NCBI GenBank assembly: GCA_001783565.1
Contig: MFMT01000023.1
Coordinates: forward strand, 1 to 42,512
Direction of reading: 5' to 3'
Origin: Candidatus Kaiserbacteria bacterium RIFOXYD1_FULL_42_15
GTDB taxonomy: Bacteria; Patescibacteriota; Minisyncoccia; Phycocordibacterales; UBA918
Length of the DNA: 42,512 bases
Of the stretch, positions 2,130 through 42,476 are shown in pieces. The translations under genes and the position numbers were made by a program. Each line of letters starts with the position of its first letter. Within the stretch, counting starts at the first letter, position 1. A model generated the notes under the pieces. That model saw only the letters and a program-made list of their open reading frames with translations, searched no databases and had not been told where the DNA came from.

Positions 2130-2312
2130 CGGACGACGTGGATTGCTCAGCTCTGACTCGCAAAGACGACGAAGACGGATGGTGTGGATTGCCGCGCTCC
2201 CGCTCGCAAAGACGGACGATGGTGGTTTATGTCGAGCGTTGACGTCTTTGCGAGTCATTACACCACAGTGGAATGACGTGGCAATCCATGACGGACGTGG
2301 ATTGCCACGTTC
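2130..2312. repeat. cluster A of the GTGGATTGC-N-CTCGCAAAGACG inverted-repeat family
   Basis: Units lie at 2138-2168 (+), 2184-2214 (+) and 2243-2289 (-, 47-nt long form), with a half unit at 2297-2306. The same module recurs at five other intergenic loci. Confidence 0.85.
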
Positions 2313-2483: not shown

Positions 2484-2753
2484 CTAGCTCCCCTCCATCG
2501 GAGGATTGGCGCGCTGGACTGGGCTAATGATTGTCGGCTTCCACTCTGCTGTTATTTCTGTATTTTCCTTTTCGTACTCTCTGATTTGATGGGTGAGGTA
2601 TTGTTGGAGACGTTTGGCGTGCTGTGGAGTGAGTGAATAGATTGTGCCTTGATTTCCTGAGCTGATACCCATCACGAAAAACTCTGGTGTGAAGGCGATG
2701 TTGATACTTTCGGCAAACAACTTCGGAGCATTTTTTAAGTCATCTGGTTTCAT
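2484..2753 (-). CDS. DUF3467-family protein
   Basis: 89-aa ORF. ...INIAFTPEFFVMGI...LTPQHAKRLQQYLTHQIREYEKE resembles DUF3467 as I recall it. It is one of only two clear minus-strand protein genes. Confidence 0.55.
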   Translation of the reverse strand: MKPDDLKNAPKLFAESINIAFTPEFFVMGISSGNQGTIYSLTPQHAKRLQQYLTHQIREYEKENTEITAEWKPTIISPVQRANPPMEGS

Positions 2754-6760: not shown

Positions 6761-6980
6761 GTGGATTGCCACGTCACTCCGCTATCGCTCCATTCCTCGC
6801 AAAGACGGCCAGCGTAGCTGACCGTCGACGACTAAAACTAAAGTTTTAGTCGTCTTTACGAGTGAAACGCAGCAATCCACGTCGTCGTCCCGTCTGTCTT
6901 TGCCTGCCTGCCCTGCATGCCATGCCTGCGCATGCAGGGCAGGCATGGCATGCAGGCGAGTGGCAACGAAGCAATTTACG
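6761..6980. repeat. cluster B of the GTGGATTGC-N-CTCGCAAAGACG family
   Basis: Units are 6761-6807 (+, long form) and 6851-6880 (-). A degenerate minus unit at 6891-6979 has a nested GC-rich palindrome. A perfect 12-bp hairpin lies at 6827-6854 between the first two units. Confidence 0.85.
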
Positions 6981-12572: not shown

Positions 12573-13127
12573 ATGTCAGAAAAAAAAGAAGAGACTCAAA
12601 AGACGGTAATAGCGTTTATAGTCGGTTTACTTATCGGAGGATTACTAGTTTGGGCATTTAGTGGTACCGAAAGCGTCGCACCAAAAAGTACTACTGATGA
12701 CAAGGTTGACACCACTGCCACAACTGATAGTAAGTCAGACGATACAAAAACCGCTACTATAGATGAGAAAAAAATAGTAGTTACACCAGAGCCTACAGCC
12801 GTCCTACCAGTAGGAGATGGTTCAGTTAAGGTTGCAGATGACCAGGCAGCTGGATCAAGAGTTGCTTTAGCATCAGCTACATTCCCAATCAAAGAAGGTT
12901 GGATTGGTGTTCGTGACTATGACAATGGTAATCTAGGTGGTCTTCTCGGCGTTGTTCGCTTTAGTGAGGAACAAGGTTTGGTACCAACCACAATTATCCT
13001 GCAACGGGCAACTGTAGCCGGAAATACTTACGCAGTTATTTTCTATACCGAAAGCGGCGACCGTAAATTCAGTCTGGCTAACGATGTTCAGGTTGATAAG
13101 ATTTTTGCCACCTTTACTGCCAAATAA
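12573..13127 (+). CDS. membrane-anchored extracytoplasmic protein, unknown function
   Basis: 184 aa. An N-terminal TM helix (VIAFIVGLLIGGLLVWAF) is followed by a T/D/K-rich linker and a beta-rich C-terminal domain. Confidence 0.5.
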   Translation: MSEKKEETQKTVIAFIVGLLIGGLLVWAFSGTESVAPKSTTDDKVDTTATTDSKSDDTKTATIDEKKIVVTPEPTAVLPVGDGSVKVADDQAAGSRVALASATFPIKEGWIGVRDYDNGNLGGLLGVVRFSEEQGLVPTTIILQRATVAGNTYAVIFYTESGDRKFSLANDVQVDKIFATFTAK

Positions 13128-13261: not shown

Positions 13262-13386
13262 CAAACGTGGATTGCTTCACTCCGTTCGCCTGTCTGCCAT
13301 GCCTGCGCATGCAGGGCAGACAGGCAAAGACGGTTGTCTGTTCTGCCTGTTCGTCTTTGCGAGGAGCTTGTGACGAAGCAATCCAG
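13262..13386. repeat. cluster C of the GTGGATTGC-N-C(A/T)..GCAAAGACG family
   Basis: Units are 13267-13332 (+) and 13352-13386 (-). The + unit carries the GC-rich core CTGCCATGCCTGCGCATGCAGGGCAG, also seen in cluster B. Confidence 0.85.
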
Positions 13387-13456
13387 AGTCTAATAAGTTA
13401 AATCTTTCCAAGAATTGTGGGTGGTAATTGGTGAAGGTATCGGTATAATGATTGAT

Positions 13457-14251
13457 ATGGCTGATTATACAAAAAAATATAACCCAAATAGAAGTACTGA
13501 GTGGAATTACGGCGGAGACAAGTGGCGACTCTCTCGCTCTAAGATTGATTTTTTTGTTGAATGTCCTCGTTGTTTTTACCTTGATAATAAACTCGGTACT
13601 AAACGTCCCGGCTTTCCATCATTTAACTTGAATCTTGCCGTTGACGAGCTTTTCAAAAAAGAGTTTGATGTTCACCGAAAAAATAAGACCCCCCACCCAG
13701 TAATGGAGCAATACAAAATAAAGGCAGTTCCTTTTCAACATGAAAAAATGGATGTTTGGCGTGACAACTTTGTCGGTATCGAATACGCCCATCCCGAGAC
13801 TGGCATGACCGTTTCAGGCGCAATTGACGATATCTGGATAACGCCGTCCGGAAAACTTATCATTGTGGATTATAAATCAACCTCAAAAGACGGTTCGATT
13901 ACAGAACTGTCAGACAGCCCTTGGGACCAACAATACAAGCGTCAGCTCGGCGTTTACAAATGGCTGCTGGAGAAAAACGGCTTCAAGGTCGAGGATGTCG
14001 GTTACCTAGTGTATGCCAATGCCAGTAAAGATGAGGTTGGTTTTGATAACAAACTGGTTTTTGAAACCACCATGGTCCCTGTCGAGGCAGAAACGGAATG
14101 GATTGAGCCAACTTTGAAAAAAATTAAGACCTGTCTTGATGACGAACACCTACCCGCTATAGGGGAGAAGTGTGAATTTTGTCCCTATCGTGAGGCCTGT
14201 GGCAAAAAACTGCAACATATCCACGCACGCCAATTAGCTCAAAGTAAATAA
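13457..14251 (+). CDS. PD-(D/E)XK nuclease, Cas4/RecB-like, with a 4-Cys cluster
   Basis: The ATG at 13457 lies 7 nt after TATAAT (13444-13449). It has an N-terminal Cys (CPRCFYL), the core DDIWITPSGKLIIVDYKS, and a C-terminal CEFCPYREAC. Confidence 0.7.
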   Translation: MADYTKKYNPNRSTEWNYGGDKWRLSRSKIDFFVECPRCFYLDNKLGTKRPGFPSFNLNLAVDELFKKEFDVHRKNKTPHPVMEQYKIKAVPFQHEKMDVWRDNFVGIEYAHPETGMTVSGAIDDIWITPSGKLIIVDYKSTSKDGSITELSDSPWDQQYKRQLGVYKWLLEKNGFKVEDVGYLVYANASKDEVGFDNKLVFETTMVPVEAETEWIEPTLKKIKTCLDDEHLPAIGEKCEFCPYREACGKKLQHIHARQLAQSK

Positions 14252-14307
14252 GAAATTTACGGGTCTCACCCTTAAATTTGAAACAAAGATATAGAACTAG
14301 TTATTTT

Positions 14308-30970: not shown

Positions 30971-30997
30971 AAACTTAGGGGTTAAACCCCTAAGTTT
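30971..30997. repeat. REP-like hairpin, left flank of the RAYT gene
   Basis: AAACTTAGGGG-TTAAA-CCCCTAAGTTT, an 11-bp stem. It overlaps the RAYT stop codon by 1 nt and lies 4 nt after the dnaJ stop. Confidence 0.85.
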
Positions 30998-31626
30998 TAC
31001 TCTAGGGTATCGGATGATTTTGATTTTAGTCTCCTTAAATAAATATCATTAGCCAGAAATACGGCGTCTTTAAACGAGTAATCAACCTGTTCAACACTGT
31101 ATAATAGCTTGCTTCTAGATATATTTTGATAGTGCAGTGAACTGGAGTGACATATTTCTCTCTCCATTTTTATATTATGCACAAAATGATTTTCATTTAC
31201 ATATGCGAGTAGATAGTTGTATTGTTCATCTGAGTTAACATGAACTCGCTTAAATGTTCCCTGGAACAATGCTCCTGATCTATCATTATCTAAATTGTAA
31301 TAACTAGTATACCCACCACTGACTCTTTTCATGAACTCACTAATACCACCATCGATATTTTGTTTTAAAATTAAATGAATGTGATTAGGTAATAGAGAGT
31401 ATGCCTTTATATTCACCAAACGTTCAGCATTTGTGAATATCTTTTTGTGGGCTAATGCAAAATCAAAATTGATTACTGGTTCTATTGAATTAAACAAATC
31501 AAGTGATTGATAAAAACGTAAATAGTCACGTTTTGATGCAAAAACTTCCCGTTTATCAACACCACGATTAAACACGTGGTATATTTCACCAGTCAGCAAT
31601 GGAACAATTTTTCTTGACATAACCAT
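30997..31626 (-). CDS. REP-associated tyrosine transposase (RAYT, IS200/IS605-like HUH Y1 transposase)
   Basis: 209 aa. It has the N-terminal YHVFNRGVDKREVF, the HUH motif LLPNHIHLIL, and a C-terminal catalytic-Tyr region LAYVNENHFVH. Confidence 0.85.
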   Translation of the reverse strand: MVMSRKIVPLLTGEIYHVFNRGVDKREVFASKRDYLRFYQSLDLFNSIEPVINFDFALAHKKIFTNAERLVNIKAYSLLPNHIHLILKQNIDGGISEFMKRVSGGYTSYYNLDNDRSGALFQGTFKRVHVNSDEQYNYLLAYVNENHFVHNIKMEREICHSSSLHYQNISRSKLLYSVEQVDYSFKDAVFLANDIYLRRLKSKSSDTLE

Positions 31627-31634
31627 ATTATATC

Positions 31635-31661
31635 AAACTTAGGGGTTTAACCCCTAAGTTT
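31635..31661. repeat. REP-like hairpin, right flank of the RAYT gene
   Basis: AAACTTAGGGG-TTTAA-CCCCTAAGTTT is the exact reverse complement of the left hairpin. It lies 8 nt upstream of the RAYT ATG. Confidence 0.85.
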
Positions 31662-38493: not shown

Positions 38494-38739
38494 GCTCGCA
38501 AAAACGACGTTAACGAAAACGTGGATTGCCACGTTGCGACTCGCAAAGACGACGGTGGGTATGAGATGTTTATTGCGTCGTCTTCGCGAGGAGGGAGCTC
38601 GCAAGCGAGTGACGTGGCGATCCATGGTGGTTTGACGGTGTGGATTGCTTCGTTGCGACTCGCAAAGACGGCGTTGACGAACGACGTGGCAATCCATAAT
38701 GTACGAAAACGTGGATTGCCTAATAACCTCACGAAGACG
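38494..38739. repeat. cluster D of the GTGGATTGC-N-CTCGCAAAGACG family
   Basis: Units are 38521-38551 (+), 38579-38625 (-), 38640-38670 (+) and 38711-38739 (+). Half units lie at 38494-38505 and 38689-38697. Confidence 0.85.
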
Positions 38740-38780: not shown

Positions 38781-39106
38781 ATGCCACTGAAGCAGCCGAC
38801 ACTGCTGAGGCGAGAGAAGAAAAGTGAGCAAATAAGCGTAGCGATTATTGCGAACTTTGTTCCCGATTTGTCCCTTCTTAAGGCAAATTGCTGGAACGAC
38901 CAGTAACAAAATTCAATACGTTGTCTATTTTCACCTTAGTAGAACTCTCCGGGAGCGCCCGACATCGCGCTAAAAAAGATGCTGTTGGTTAAATAAACTG
39001 TAACCAACAAGCAAGTAGGGTGGTACCGCGCAGTAATCGCAAGATTGCAATCGCCCCTACAAATGTATTATTAGCTTAATATATTTGTAGGGGCGATTTT
39101 GTTTCT
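38781..39106 (+). promoter_or_regulatory. T-box riboswitch leader with intrinsic terminator, controlling aspS
   Basis: The T-box core AGTAGGGTGGTACCGCG lies at 39014-39030. The antiterminator helix GTAGGG/CCCTAC carries a UGGUACC bulge. The Stem III hairpin is TGTTGGTTA..TAACCAACA (about 38983-39009). The terminator is AATCGCCCCTACAAAT..ATTTGTAGGGGCGATT plus TTTGTTT (39049-39106). A candidate Stem I lies at 38836-38971 with GAC-A at 38961-38964. TACAAT sits at 38769-38774. Confidence 0.85.
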
Positions 39107-40487: not shown

Positions 40488-40506
40488 CGGTTGAATAGTT
40501 GATTAT

Positions 40507-40690
40507 GTCGTTGCGAGTCGCAACGTGGCAATCCACAGCGAAGGCAGACGTGGATCGCTTCGTTGCGACTCGCGAAGACGAAGTTGACCGGACGGATATG
40601 GATTGCCACCTGCCGCGCTTCGCTCGCAGCTAAAGGCGCTCGCAAAGACGGACGTGACAGACGTGGATTGCTTCGTGTGCTCGCAAAGAC
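40507..40690. repeat. cluster E of the GTGGATTGC-N-CTCGCAAAGACG family
   Basis: Units are 40507-40536 (-), 40550-40580 (+), 40598-40650 (+, with an internal duplication of the CGCTCGCA arm) and 40663-40690 (+). Confidence 0.85.
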
Positions 40691-40777
40691 TCATGTGGTG
40701 GATGTAGCGATATGCGATCAACCAGCAATACTCATTTCGAAAACTAAATTAAATACCAAACATGATAGAATTACTGT

Positions 40778-41612: not shown

Positions 41613-41878
41613 GTGGACTGCTTCGCGAGCTTGCGGTGACGACTTACTTTCGTCTTTACGAGGAATGGAGCGATAGCGGAATGACGTGGCAATCCATGGT
41701 AATGACGAACGGTGTGGATTGCTTCCTTACAGGAACTGTTCAGGTTGTCACTATTTTTGCAAAATAGCAGGCAACCTCTTGCGAAGCTCCAAGTGTTCGC
41801 TTCTCACGTGCGACTCGCAAAGACGACGAGGAGGGGCGATGGTGAGACGGATTGTTGTGACAGGGTTGGGCAATCCAT
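41613..41878. repeat. cluster F of the GTGGATTGC-N-CTCGCAAAGACG family
   Basis: There is a degenerate unit at 41613-41643. Unit 41651-41697 (-) matches 44 of 47 nt of the reverse complement of unit 6761-6807. Unit 41714-41825 (+) has its arms separated by an ~80-nt insert. Half units lie at 41847-41857 and 41870-41878. Confidence 0.85.
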
Positions 41879-41892
41879 TTTAATAAATATAT

Positions 41893-41938
41893 AAAAAGAA
41901 AAGGCTGTTGCAATGTCGATGAATCGATTGCAACAGCC
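41893..41938 (-). terminator. strong rho-independent terminator on the minus strand
   Basis: A 12-bp stem GGCTGTTGCAAT/ATTGCAACAGCC (41903-41938) is followed on the minus strand by TTTTCTTTTT (41902-41893). Confidence 0.75.
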
Positions 41939-42355
41939 CTGACGGTCAGTTTAAGATTTTTCTCTCGAAGGGAAAACTGCCAACCCCTTGCCACTTTACC
42001 ACCGCCATGCGGTGTCATGTGGCGAATTCATACATCGGAACATTTTCATGTCCCTCTCCCTTTCTCTTTCTTTTCTGATCGTTTTGGCGTTGGGAGAAAC
42101 CCGGTTGGGTTCCCCCCTCAAAAGACCTGAGGTGTCCGTTGCGATTAGGTTGCTAAAGAGCAACTACATCGCATAGTCACCTCGGCCGGCGCCGACGCAT
42201 CAGGTCGATGCGGTCGGCAGAATCACGGCACCCAGGTCGACAAAAAATTCAACACTCATTTGCATCGCCATATACTGCGGCGAGAAGTTGGTTTTCATTT
42301 CAATCCTCCACTTGCTTGAGCTACACCACACGATTGTGATGTTTCTTGCTCAAGT
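41895..42355 (-). ncRNA. candidate ~460-nt structured transcript (unknown RNA, or a carrier of small ORFs) in the scpA-scpB gap
   Basis: It is bounded by the promoter at 42362-42390 and the terminator at 41893-41938. It is a GC-rich island with many local hairpins, a 26-nt purine-only tract, and no ORF of 60 aa or more. Its identity is unknown. Confidence 0.4.
42200..42298 (-). CDS. hypothetical 32-aa peptide with a canonical Shine-Dalgarno
   Basis: GGAGG (complement of 42305-42309) is followed by a 6-nt spacer and ATG. I translated it by hand as MKTNFSPQYMAMQMSVEFFVDLGAVILPTAST. Its GC-rich codons differ from the rest of the window. Coding status is unproven. Confidence 0.3.
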   Translation of the reverse strand: MKTNFSPQYMAMQMSVEFFVDLGAVILPTAST

Positions 42356-42361
42356 CTTAAT

Positions 42362-42390
42362 ATATTATCATACTATACCATAAAAGTCAA
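42362..42390 (-). promoter_or_regulatory. near-consensus extended -10 promoter on the minus strand
   Basis: Read on the minus strand: TTGACT (42390-42385), a 17-nt spacer ending in TGA, then TAATAT (42367-42362). Confidence 0.6.
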
Positions 42391-42476
42391 GCAATTTTGT
42401 TAAAAATTGGCAGTTGTGCACAAAAAGAGCGGAAAAACTTTGTTTTTCAGCCCTAAAACTGTGTTAAAATACCCAC

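What the first reader, a model, noticed from the sequence alone, without database searches (positions are those of the whole stretch)
2130..2312. Dispersed GC-rich inverted-repeat family (GTGGATTGC-N-CTCGCAAAGACG): family definition and cluster 1 of 6
Six intergenic loci are built from one module: 2130-2312, 6761-6980, 13262-13386, 38494-38739, 40507-40690 and 41613-41878. Together they cover about 1.2 kb, roughly 3% of the window. The module is 5'-GTGGATTGC(C/T)-[10-26 nt]-CTCGCAAAGACG-3'. The short form is 31 nt (approximately GTGGATTGCYWCGTTGCGACTCGCAAAGACG) and the long form is 47 nt. I count about 19-20 units in both orientations. They are usually paired head-to-head, so each locus can fold into long imperfect hairpins. 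The 5' arm can itself form ACGTGG-ATTG-CCACGT. All loci are clearly GC-richer than the flanks and sit just downstream of + strand genes (ychF, leuS, 12573-13127, trpS, aspS, scpA). They also create spurious ORFs with recurring peptides (WIA(S/T)LRLAKT, VAIHG). They are not CRISPR and lack U tracts, so they are not simple terminators. They look like a REP/BIME- or MITE-like family, or a family of structured RNAs. I recall similar junk-ORF-generating repeats in metagenomic CPR contigs, but I know of no assigned function. In this cluster the units are 2138-2168 (+), 2184-2214 (+) and 2243-2289 (-), with a half unit at 2297-2306.
Basis: seen in the sequence. Interest (0 to 1): 0.7.

Follow-up and report, generated by a model that had tools for sequence, protein, structure and literature searches.

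The report
Hairpin repeats of Ssn ssDNA nucleases
The dispersed GC-rich repeats are real, and they belong to a recently described kind of bacterial repeat: the hairpin motifs that flank, and are cut as single-stranded DNA by, tiny GIY-YIG "Ssn" nucleases. Here they are a sequence variant that the published motif definition misses, in a candidate-phyla-radiation bacterium, with no nuclease gene in the sequence available.

Summary
About 17 full and 6 partial or degenerate units of TGGATTGCY-[10-95 nt]-CTCGCAAAGACG lie in six intergenic clusters, far above chance.

The units do behave like REP/BIME/MITE repeats, but the partner is not the RAYT-like ORF. That ORF is flanked by a different palindrome.

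The same two-box module occurs across bacterial phyla and in viral contigs. Read on the other strand it is CGTC[A/T]TTGCGAG-var-GCAATCCA[G/C]. In that form it is the inverted terminal repeat of a mini-element whose only gene is a ~95-aa GIY-YIG nuclease (32 of 80 loci chosen by the protein alone).

This matches the Ssn/NTS/SRM system of Chenal et al. 2025 (PMC11893778). There the nuclease binds the hairpin only as ssDNA and cuts just upstream.

Close Kaiserbacteria relatives carry intact unit-ssn-unit elements at the orthologous positions of window clusters 5 and 6. Other relatives have an ORF-less doublet or an empty site. Cluster 1 is absent, half-sized or full-sized in relatives.

The published SRM search pattern matches none of these units, and no ssn gene lies in the 48 kb available. 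Verdict: a new variant of a known kind, of moderate interest.

The parts
2138..2168 (+). Cluster 1, unit 1 (31 nt; reads GTGGATTGC-TCAGCTCTGA-CTCGCAAAGACG on +). The Ssn-type reading CGTCTTTGCGAG..GCAATCCAC is on the - strand.
   Evidence: It is conserved in the 96% relative L343.
2184..2214 (+). Cluster 1, unit 2 (31 nt)
   Evidence: It is absent from L343 and belongs to the ~127-nt segment that the window has in addition.
2243..2289 (-). Cluster 1, unit 3 (47-nt long form). The + strand reads CGTCTTTGCGAG-TCATTACACCACAGTGGAATGACGTG-GCAATCCAT. Its middle forms its own hairpin.
   Evidence: ssDNA fold -11 kcal/mol, z = -3.1. Absent from L343.
2297..2310 (+). Cluster 1, half unit (left box GTGGATTGCCACGT only)
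   Evidence: Present in diverged form in L343.
6761..6807 (+). Cluster 2, long-form unit (47 nt). It is 96% complementary to the unit at 41651-41696.
   Evidence: (I1)
6851..6880 (-). Cluster 2, short unit (right box CTCGTAAAGACG)
6896..6979 (-). Cluster 2, degenerate long unit. Its middle is a nested GC-rich palindrome (GTCTTTGCC-TGCCTGCCCTGCATGCC...GGCATGCAGGCGAG...GCAATTTAC).
   Evidence: D6, I9, I10
13267..13332 (+). Cluster 3, 66-nt unit with the same GC-rich palindrome in its middle and a degenerate right box (CAGGCAAAGACG)
   Evidence: ssDNA fold z = -4.1.
13352..13386 (-). Cluster 3, 35-nt unit
38495..38506 (+). Cluster 4, right box only (CTCGCAAAAACG)
38521..38551 (+). Cluster 4, short unit (GTGGATTGCCACGTTGCGACTCGCAAAGACG = WIATLRLAKT)
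   Evidence: It is one of the two direct repeats that bound the segment missing in assembly L002.
38579..38625 (-). Cluster 4, long-form unit (boxes TGGATCGC / CTCGCGAAGACG)
   Evidence: (D7)
38640..38670 (+). Cluster 4, short unit
38684..38697 (-). Cluster 4, left-box half unit (ACGTGGCAATCCAT on +)
38711..38739 (+). Cluster 4, unit with a degenerate right box (CTCACGAAGACG)
40506..40536 (-). Cluster 5, unit. The + strand reads GTCGTTGCGAG-TCGCAACGTG-GCAATCCAC. It is the left arm of an ORF-less head-to-head doublet just upstream of scpA.
   Evidence: Relatives L206 and L214 have an ssn ORF between the equivalent arms at this site.
40550..40580 (+). Cluster 5, unit; right arm of the doublet (13-nt spacer). 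Its middle is nearly identical to that of the left arm.
   Evidence: (I7)
40598..40650 (+). Cluster 5, 53-nt unit
40663..40691 (+). Cluster 5, 29-nt unit
41613..41643 (+). Cluster 6, degenerate unit (GTGGACTGC...GGTGACGAC)
41651..41697 (-). Cluster 6, long-form unit, downstream of scpA
   Evidence: (I1). Relative L206 has a full unit-ssn-unit element in the scpA-scpB spacer.
41714..41825 (+). Cluster 6, unit with a 95-nt middle insert between intact boxes
41869..41878 (-). Cluster 6, left box only

Best explanation
The module is an Ssn-related hairpin repeat. I call this sequence type 'class A'.

Anatomy. Read on the functional strand, a unit is 5'-C-GTC-[A/T]TTGC-GAG-(variable, expandable middle)-GCAAT-C-CA(G/C)-3'. 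It has a short basal stem (ATTGC/GCAAT; in the window TTGC/GCAA closed by a mismatch). It also has an invariant GTC 5' of the stem and an invariant C 3' of it.

Context in other genomes. In many bacteria two such units in inverted orientation bracket a single ~95-aa GIY-YIG gene (ssn). This forms an IS-like mini-element. ORF-less inverted doublets and mosaic arrays of units are scattered through intergenic DNA. The window holds only such ORF-less units.

How it most likely works (by homology with Neisseria SsnA/NTS and three other tested pairs). When the DNA is single-stranded (replication, repair, uptake of foreign DNA), the functional strand folds. An Ssn nuclease, encoded elsewhere in the genome or formerly at these sites, binds the stem plus the flanking GTC and C. 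It nicks the ssDNA a few nucleotides 5' of the motif. dsDNA, RNA and the complementary strand are not substrates.

How the repeats accumulate. They accumulate by insertion and expansion and by recombination between units.

Basis of each step.
- Shown here: the repeat family, its spread across phyla, its physical linkage to ssn genes, co-diversification of nuclease and repeat class, and gain/loss at orthologous sites.
- Taken from the literature: the biochemistry, which was tested only on class-B-like motifs.
- Inferred: that class-A units are cut by class-A-linked Ssn; that this Kaiserbacteria genome still encodes one; how the units spread; and what they do for the cell.
For: The hits span Alpha-, Beta- and Gammaproteobacteria, Bacteroidales, Clostridia, Synergistaceae, Deferribacteraceae and several CPR lineages.

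(2) All 4 small GIY-YIG genes in those 836 kb lie 22-102 nt from a unit.

(3) Unbiased test: 80 metagenome loci were chosen only for encoding this protein. In 35 a unit (strict definition) lies within 200 nt. The usual layout is unit(-) 14-60 nt upstream and unit(+) 17-30 nt downstream. With a looser class assignment, 32 loci are class A, 36 are class B (GTC-ATTCCCGCG-AAA-CGCGGGAAT-CCAG, i.e. NTS-like) and 11 have neither.

(4) Six of the 80 loci contain exact matches to the published NTS consensus and 25 match the SRM pattern. The protein set is therefore the published Ssn family. The nearest PDB relatives are the stand-alone UPF0213 GIY-YIG proteins 1ywl and 1zg2.

(5) For 64 of 68 proteins, the nearest neighbour carries the same repeat class.

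(6) In ORF-containing elements the two arms are 79% identical in their variable middles (11 of 26 identical), against 50% for random pairs.

(7) Relatives of the window organism. L206 (ScpA 77% identical) has CGTCTTTGCGAG..GCAATCCAG-ssn-TGGATTGC..CTCGCAA[T/A]GA[C/A]G both upstream and downstream of scpA. These are the positions of window clusters 5 and 6. L214 also has ssn upstream of scpA, L208 has an ORF-less doublet there, and L207 is empty.

(8) Cluster 1 site: no units in relatives with 84-88% YchF identity; unit 1 plus the half unit in the 96% relative; 3.5 units in the window.

(9) Within single genomes, near-identical 140-150-nt doublet elements sit at unrelated sites.

(10) Comparative pair counts support a small inner helix: covariation 0.108 against 0.043 in shuffles, with 0 of 500 shuffles reaching the observed value.

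(11) The published biochemistry matches the conserved positions. GTC upstream of the palindrome is needed for cleavage, the C after it for binding, and the loop tolerates extensions.
Against: - No ssn gene or remnant lies in the window or in the 5.9-kb extension (hmmsearch E >= 0.13). I could not determine whether the genome has one elsewhere.
- The published SRM pattern matches 0 of 17 window units and 0 of 329 class-A units.
- The window's units are thermodynamically weak hairpins. Their basal stem is 4 bp with an A.A (T.T) mismatch where other members have an A:T pair.
- Cleavage has been shown only for class-B-like motifs in Neisseria and Wolbachia, and there changing the stem sequence abolished activity.
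- In ORF-less doublets the two units are no more alike than random pairs (54% against 50%). Doublets are therefore not all simple recent deletions of the ORF.
- Only 1 of 120 viral loci that carry units has an ssn homologue.
Confidence: 0.72

Rival explanations
1. Orphan relics. The units are decaying footprints of Ssn mini-elements whose nuclease has been lost from this genome. They now only serve as substrates for homologous recombination or replication slippage and have no protein partner.
For: - No ssn gene in the 48 kb examined.
- Many half and degenerate units.
- One assembly lacks exactly the stretch between two direct units (L002).
- Weak single-unit hairpins.
- Orphan units greatly outnumber ssn genes everywhere.
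Against: - The two boxes are almost invariant across 17 units while the middles differ freely. This suggests selection or recent activity.
- Units were gained recently relative to a relative with 96% YchF identity.
- Relatives keep intact ssn genes at the same sites.
- In the published survey, 81% of genomes with more than 200 SRMs encode an Ssn.
Confidence: 0.2
2. REP/REPIN system. The units are bound and mobilised by the RAYT-like Y1 transposase encoded at 30997-31626.
For: - The ORF has a Y1_Tnp domain (24.4 bits) and a weak RAYT hit.
- Units form inverted doublets and BIME-like arrays.
Against: - The ORF is flanked by a different perfect palindrome, TTAGGGGTT(A/T)AACCCCTAA, at 30971-30997 and 31635-31661. 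None of the GTGGATTGC units lies near it.
- No homologue of it occurs in 1.22 Mb of unit-bearing loci.
- The protein that is bracketed by units across phyla is GIY-YIG, not HUH/Y1.
- The units have no GTAG-type 5' motif.
Confidence: 0.03
3. RNA-level elements. The units would be structured RNAs, mRNA 3'-end stabilisers or non-canonical terminators acting on the upstream genes.
For: - All clusters lie just downstream of + strand genes.
- Hairpin potential and compensatory changes in the inner helix.
Against: - Nearly all genes in the window are on the + strand, so position downstream of + strand genes carries no information.
- Full units occur in both orientations (11 + and 6 -).
- No U tracts.
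- No Rfam match at gathering score, nor at E<=1 on cluster 4, the one cluster tested at that threshold.
- Most single units fold no better than shuffled sequence.
- Sequence conservation across phyla is tied to a DNA nuclease that does not act on RNA.
- Relatives do without the units at the same sites.
Confidence: 0.05

Closest known systems
Ssn nucleases with NTS/SRM hairpin repeats (Chenal et al., Nat Commun 2025, PMC11893778)
   Same: - A single-domain ~94-aa GIY-YIG gene bracketed by inverted hairpin repeats (NTS-ssnA-NTS).
- The same repeats dispersed and clustered in intergenic DNA.
- An oriented motif with a conserved GTC 5' and C 3' of the palindrome, and a loop that tolerates extension.
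- Distribution across phyla.
- My protein-selected loci include exact NTS matches.
   Different: - The window's stem sequence (TTGCGAG...GCAAT) differs from NTS (ATTCCCGCG...CGCGGGAAT).
- The published SRM pattern matches none of the window's units.
- The basal stem is only 4-5 bp, with a large variable middle of 10-95 nt.
- No cleavage data exist for this class.
- No ssn gene lies in the window.
- The host is a CPR bacterium in which no role (for example in natural transformation) is known.
Neisseria dRS3 repeats and neisserial intergenic mosaic elements (NIMEs)
   Same: Intergenic mosaic arrays built from short palindromic repeats in both orientations. They are now understood as partly NTS, that is, Ssn sites.
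   Different: The dRS3 core is ATTCCC-N8-GGGAAT, and no such sequence occurs in the window's units. dRS3 is also a phage integration target; nothing comparable was examined here.
REP/BIME elements and REPINs with RAYT (Y1/HUH) transposases
   Same: - Hairpin repeats recognised as ssDNA.
- Inverted doublets as the commonest unit (97 of 140 adjacent pairs).
- Mosaic clusters.
- The nuclease gene flanked by its own repeats.
- A single-gene, IS-like layout.
   Different: The enzyme is of the GIY-YIG fold, not HUH/Y1. There is no GTAG motif. REPs are species-specific, whereas this module keeps about 20 invariant bases across phyla. The window's own RAYT-like gene carries different flanking palindromes.
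MITEs derived from insertion sequences
   Same: Genome-specific 140-150-nt copies with extended terminal inverted repeats at unrelated sites. Sites are empty or filled among relatives.
   Different: No target-site duplication was seen. There is no DDE transposase. The only bracketed ORF is a 95-aa nuclease with no known strand-transfer activity.

Membership tests
Ssn-related motif (SRM/NTS) repeats | The repeats flank genes for single-domain GIY-YIG Ssn nucleases as inverted repeats | tested here: met
   For the repeat class: 32 of 80 protein-selected loci carry class-A units at the ORF. Kaiserbacteria relatives L206 and L214 carry them with the window's box type.
Ssn-related motif (SRM/NTS) repeats | An ssn gene is present in the same genome or next to the repeats | tested here: inconclusive
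   None in the window or the 5.9-kb extension (tblastn, hmmsearch E >= 0.13).
Ssn-related motif (SRM/NTS) repeats | An oriented hairpin with a conserved GTC 5' of the palindrome and a C immediately 3' of it | tested here: met
   GTC and the C after GCAAT are invariant in the full units. The basal stem ATTGC/GCAAT never varies. The inner helix shows compensatory changes. However, single window units fold weakly.
Ssn-related motif (SRM/NTS) repeats | Match to the published NTS consensus or to the SRM search pattern HGTCWYN(0-2)YYVSBRHN(0-5)WNVSBRGN(0-2)RNCYNB | tested here: not met
   0 matches in the window and 0 of 329 class-A units. The pattern does match class-B units and 25 of 80 Ssn loci.
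Ssn-related motif (SRM/NTS) repeats | Intergenic, clustered, many copies per genome | tested here: met
   0 of 17 units in genes, with 14.6% of the window intergenic; six clusters in 42.5 kb. The copy number in the whole genome could not be measured.
Ssn-related motif (SRM/NTS) repeats | Bound and cleaved by the cognate Ssn as ssDNA, on one strand only; not as dsDNA or RNA | not testable with these tools
   This needs biochemistry. It has been shown only for the Neisseria and Wolbachia pairs.
REP/BIME-RAYT (REPIN) | The RAYT gene is flanked by the repeat family | tested here: not met
   The RAYT-like ORF is flanked by TTAGGGGTT(A/T)AACCCCTAA. No RAYT homologue occurs in 1.22 Mb of loci.
REP/BIME-RAYT (REPIN) | Inverted doublets as the predominant arrangement | tested here: met
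   97 of 140 adjacent pairs are head-to-head, with a modal spacer of 21-24 nt.
IS-derived MITE | Terminal inverted repeats plus a target-site duplication and a cognate transposase-encoding IS | tested here: inconclusive
   Terminal inverted repeats are present. No target-site duplication is evident in the flanks. The only bracketed ORF is GIY-YIG.
Known structured RNA family or intrinsic terminator | An Rfam covariance-model match, or a stem followed by a U tract in the sense orientation | tested here: not met
   No Rfam hit at gathering score, nor at E<=1 over cluster 4. Units lie in both orientations and have no T runs.
CRISPR array | Direct repeats of one orientation with regular spacing and unique spacers | tested here: not met
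   Mixed orientations, with spacers of 13-45 nt between units.

The most novel reading that the evidence does not exclude
Class-A units together with their ssn gene would form a distinct, hugely successful specificity class of a GIY-YIG-driven mobile element that has not been described. This element would actively insert and expand in intergenic DNA across bacterial phyla, CPR included. The Kaiserbacteria series (empty site, full element, ORF-less doublet, expanded array) would capture that life cycle. If so, it would be the first bacterial transposon-like element powered by a GIY-YIG ssDNA nuclease. It would also explain one of the commonest junk-ORF-generating repeats in metagenomes.
Probability: 0.3. 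Interest if true: 0.7.

Novelty: new variant of a known kind. Interest (0 to 1): 0.4.

Why it matters
(1) Annotation. This module and its AATGAC sibling generate recurrent spurious ORFs in genomes and metagenomes (WIATLRLAKT, LDCFVASLLAKT/LAMT, SLRAKRSNP, FARSEATKQSR). Several assemblies of this organism also end inside cluster 4. Recognising the module would remove those ORF calls.

(2) Scope of the Ssn system. The published SRM pattern finds only 25 of 80 Ssn loci in my sample. Classes A and B together account for 68 of 80. The published association is therefore probably an underestimate, and class A offers a second, sequence-distinct nuclease/site pair for ssDNA tools.

(3) Biology. CPR bacteria have tiny genomes, yet here they carry about 3% of a 42-kb region as such repeats. 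The orthologous-site series in Kaiserbacteria is a natural experiment on how these elements are gained, lose their ORF and expand.

It is not a new kind of system.

Tried and rejected
- Full-text searches for the junk peptides and for the DNA strings found nothing relevant. Two keyword searches on GIY-YIG with repeats or terminal inverted repeats did not surface the system. It was found only through 'dRS3'.
- A first neighbourhood clustering around exact units showed only junk ORFs. The GIY-YIG link appeared only when I looked at ORFs bracketed by units.
- Rfam gave nothing at gathering score on the window, L001 and L206, nor at E-value threshold on cluster 4.
- RAYT link: rejected. The small ORF 2484-2753(-) next to cluster 1 is not a RAYT fragment.
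- Ideas discarded on reading the sequence: a DnaA box (TGTGGAT..), integron attC (R''/R' cores), CRISPR type I-C repeat ends (..GTGGATTGAAAC). Flanks and spacing do not fit any of them.
- Attempt to find an ssn gene of the window's own genome through protein names and cluster members: uninformative.
- Supplementary tables of the Ssn paper are not held, so I could not check whether the 29 curated SRMs include a class-A example.
- Viral contigs carry many units but almost no ssn. I did not pursue this.
- NCBIfam has no model for this protein.
Full report
**1.

The two conserved boxes are strongly over-represented. CTCGCAAAGACG (up to 2 mismatches) occurs 21 times against 2.2 expected. GTGGATTGCY (up to 1 mismatch) occurs 23 times against 4.4 expected. 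No shuffle reaches either count.

Pairing the boxes gives 17 full units of 28-112 nt plus about 6 half or degenerate units. The coordinates given for cluster 1 are exact.

None of the 17 full units touches a gene, although only 14.6% of the window is intergenic. The flanking genes are ychF, leuS, trpS, aspS and scpA. The ORFs that read through clusters have no Pfam match.

One point needs correcting. Single units are poor hairpins as ssDNA: most z-scores are near 0 and only 4 of 16 are at or below -2.3. The long hairpins come from inverted pairs of units.

**2. Source organism and within-population variation.**

The window belongs to Candidatus Kaiserbacteria bacterium RIFOXYD1_FULL_42_15, a CPR organism from Rifle groundwater.

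Independent assemblies are about 99.9% identical to the window, with one exception. One assembly (L002) lacks exactly 38552-38639, the stretch between two direct 31-nt units. Several contigs also end inside cluster 4.

**3. The family is pan-bacterial.**

I scanned one genome per species with TGGATTGC-N10-40-CTCGCAAAGACG. Hosts include:
- Methylobacterium, Bradyrhizobium and sphingomonads;
- Legionella, Coxiellaceae and Thiobacillus;
- Bacteroidales, Clostridia, Synergistaceae and Deferribacteraceae;
- Saccharibacteria, Kaiserbacteria, Campbellbacteria and Gracilibacteria.

Between the invariant boxes the middle varies and often forms its own small hairpin. With relaxed matching, AAAGAC and AATGAC boxes occur side by side.

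The dominant arrangement is a head-to-head inverted doublet: 97 of 140 adjacent pairs, with a modal spacer of 21-24 nt.

Within single genomes, near-identical 140-150-nt doublet elements with extra genome-specific terminal inverted repeats sit at unrelated sites. More than 120 viral or proviral contigs also carry units.

**4. The partner is a GIY-YIG nuclease.**

No real protein family recurred next to exact units. ORFs bracketed by units told a different story: they included the same ~95-aa GIY-YIG protein in unrelated genomes. All four such genes in the 836 kb of loci lie 22-102 nt from a unit.

For an unbiased test I fetched 80 metagenome loci selected only by this protein. In 35 of them a unit (strict definition) lies within 200 nt. 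The usual layout is one unit upstream and one downstream, in inverted orientation.

The anatomy is GTCATTGCGAG-var-GCAATCCAG, then an RBS, the ORF and the stop codon, then CTGGATTGC-var-CTCGCAATGAC. The two arms of an ORF-containing element are 79% identical in their variable middles, with 11 of 26 identical. Random pairs are 50% identical.

The loci that lacked my unit carry a related inverted repeat, GTC-ATTCCCGCG-AAA-CGCGGGAAT-CCAG, or variants with compensatory stem changes. The general form is therefore GTC-[hairpin]-CCAG.

Among the 80 loci, 32 are class A (the window's type), 36 are class B and 11 have neither. For 64 of 68 proteins the nearest neighbour carries the same repeat class.

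**5. This is a published system.**

ATTCCC-N8-GGGAAT is the Neisseria dRS3 repeat. Searching for it led to Chenal et al. 2025 (PMC11893778). Their findings:
- SsnA is a 94-aa single-domain GIY-YIG protein (cd10448).
- It binds the hairpin repeat NTS (CGTCATTCCCGCGMAVGCGGGAATCYRG) only as ssDNA and only on one strand.
- It cuts a few nucleotides upstream of the motif.
- The three bases 5' of the palindrome matter for cleavage. The C just 3' of it matters for binding. The loop can be extended.
- RNA and dsDNA are not substrates.
- ssnA genes are typically flanked by such 'Ssn-related motifs' (SRM). The authors themselves noted that this layout is IS-like.
- 81% of genomes with more than 200 SRMs encode an Ssn.
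- In meningococci the system restricts incoming ssDNA during transformation. Its role elsewhere is unknown.

My protein-selected loci include 6 with exact NTS matches and 25 matching the SRM pattern, so they are the same protein family. The nearest solved structures are the UPF0213 stand-alone GIY-YIG proteins. A 2006 survey treated these as vertically inherited Slx1-like repair proteins.

**6. Membership of the window's units.**

- Met: linkage of this repeat class to ssn genes; the oriented GTC...C flanks; intergenic clustering.
- Not met: the published SRM search pattern and the NTS consensus match none of the window's units and 0 of 329 class-A units.
- Inconclusive: whether this genome has an ssn gene. 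There is none in the window or in the 5.9-kb extension, and name and cluster look-ups did not help.
- Not testable here: cleavage.

Comparative pair counts on 40 distinct 35-nt class-A units give the following:
- The inner-helix pairs 15:21 and 16:20 survive 8 and 3 double changes.
- The covariation score is 0.108 against 0.043 in shuffles; 0 of 500 shuffles reach it, and slid structures score 0.067 or less.
- The basal stem never varies.
- Its closing A:T pair is a mismatch in the window's AAAGAC variant.

I therefore file the units as working like an SRM, as linked to Ssn-type genes, and as a variant outside the published motif definition.

**7. Evidence from close relatives.**

Site upstream and downstream of scpA:
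- L206 (ScpA 77% identical, same gene order) carries two intact elements of the window's box type. One lies immediately upstream of scpA and one downstream, exactly where the window has clusters 5 and 6.
- A second lineage (L214-216) also has ssn upstream of scpA.
- L208 has an ORF-less doublet there.
- L207 has a 24-nt spacer and no units in 20 kb.
- The window's cluster 5 begins with a doublet whose arms are nearly identical, as expected after recent loss of the ORF.

Site of cluster 1, downstream of ychF:
- Relatives with 84-88% YchF identity have no units.
- The 96% relative has only unit 1 plus the half unit, in otherwise near-identical flanks.
- The window has about 127 nt more, carrying units 2 and 3.

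The units are therefore gained, expanded and lost on short evolutionary time scales.

**8. Rival explanations.**

RAYT/REPIN: the Y1 ORF at 30997-31626 is flanked by a different perfect palindrome. It is a weak RAYT match. It has no homologues in 1.22 Mb of loci.

RNA element or terminator:
- Units lie in both orientations.
- They have no U tracts.
- There are no Rfam hits.
- Single units fold weakly.
- Relatives lack them at the same sites.

Relics without a nuclease: this cannot be excluded, because no ssn was found and many units are degenerate. Against it stand the near-invariance of the boxes and the recent gains.

A caveat on the 'MITE = deleted element' idea: in ORF-less doublets the two units are generally no more alike than random pairs (54% against 50%). 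Usually one is short and one is long. Doublets are therefore largely an independent non-autonomous lineage.

**9. Verdict.**

The specific partner and the claim of 'no known function' were wrong.

The clusters are arrays of Ssn-type ssDNA-nuclease hairpin sites, of a sequence class that the published pattern misses, in a CPR genome.

Novelty: a new variant of a known kind. Interest: moderate.

Noticed in passing
window 30971-30997, 31635-31661, 2463-2481 (weaker copy 14253-14280): The Y1-transposase/RAYT-like ORF (30997-31626, - strand) is bracketed by a perfect 27-nt palindrome, AAACTTAGGGGTT(A/T)AACCCCTAAGTTT. A third copy lies just after cluster 1, next to a conserved 89-aa ORF on the - strand. 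It may be this gene's own REP, or a bidirectional terminator.
   Followed up: partly
window 38815-39061 (+), terminator hairpin 39049-39098: A divergent T-box leader lies upstream of aspS. It has the AGTAGGGTGGTACCGCG motif followed by a terminator with 22-nt arms. Rfam RF00230 matches over its full length but far below threshold (23 bits against 93, E = 0.006). CPR T-boxes may be missed by standard annotation.
   Followed up: partly
window 6896-6979 and 13285-13325; L082:400-470, 580-665: Some units carry a nested GC-rich palindrome in their middle (CCTGCATGCCATGCCTGCGCATGCAGGGCAGGCA in the window; GACCTGCCTGCCGGCAGGCAGGTC in a Campbellbacteria genome). This looks like a secondary expansion of the hairpin loop region.
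   Followed up: no
window 38552-38639 versus L002: One independent assembly of the same population lacks exactly the stretch between two direct 31-nt units. Other contigs end inside cluster 4 (at window positions 38555, 38645 and 38746). This is either real recombinational polymorphism or assembly collapse at the repeats.
   Followed up: partly
window 41880-42476 (L001:14044-14999); L206:7640-8268; L207:10745-11400; L208:10742-11351: The scpA-scpB spacer stays 600-1100 nt long in relatives even without units (about 105 nt in L209). It has no Rfam match even at E<=1. It may hold an unannotated small gene or ncRNA.
   Followed up: partly
L126-L205 (80 Ssn loci): The published SRM search pattern matches only 25 of 80 Ssn-encoding loci. 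A two-class description (class A GTCATTGCGAG..GCAATCCAG; class B GTCATTCCCGCG..CGCGGGAATCCAG) covers 68 of 80. The two classes appear to correspond to the two commonest junk-peptide families that I recall from metagenome proteins. The LAMT/RNDG/AKQS type was seen. The PAKAGIQ type occurs in the extended ORF call of L144; the AGMT type is from my memory only.
   Followed up: partly
window 13415-14251: A PD-(D/E)XK / Cas4-like nuclease gene starts 29 nt after cluster 3. I did not examine whether this adjacency recurs in other genomes.
   Followed up: no
L343:3019-3133: The 96% relative carries two units between the YkuD-domain gene and the VF530 gene, upstream of ychF. The corresponding DNA lies at or before the start of the window, so I did not compare it.
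   Followed up: no
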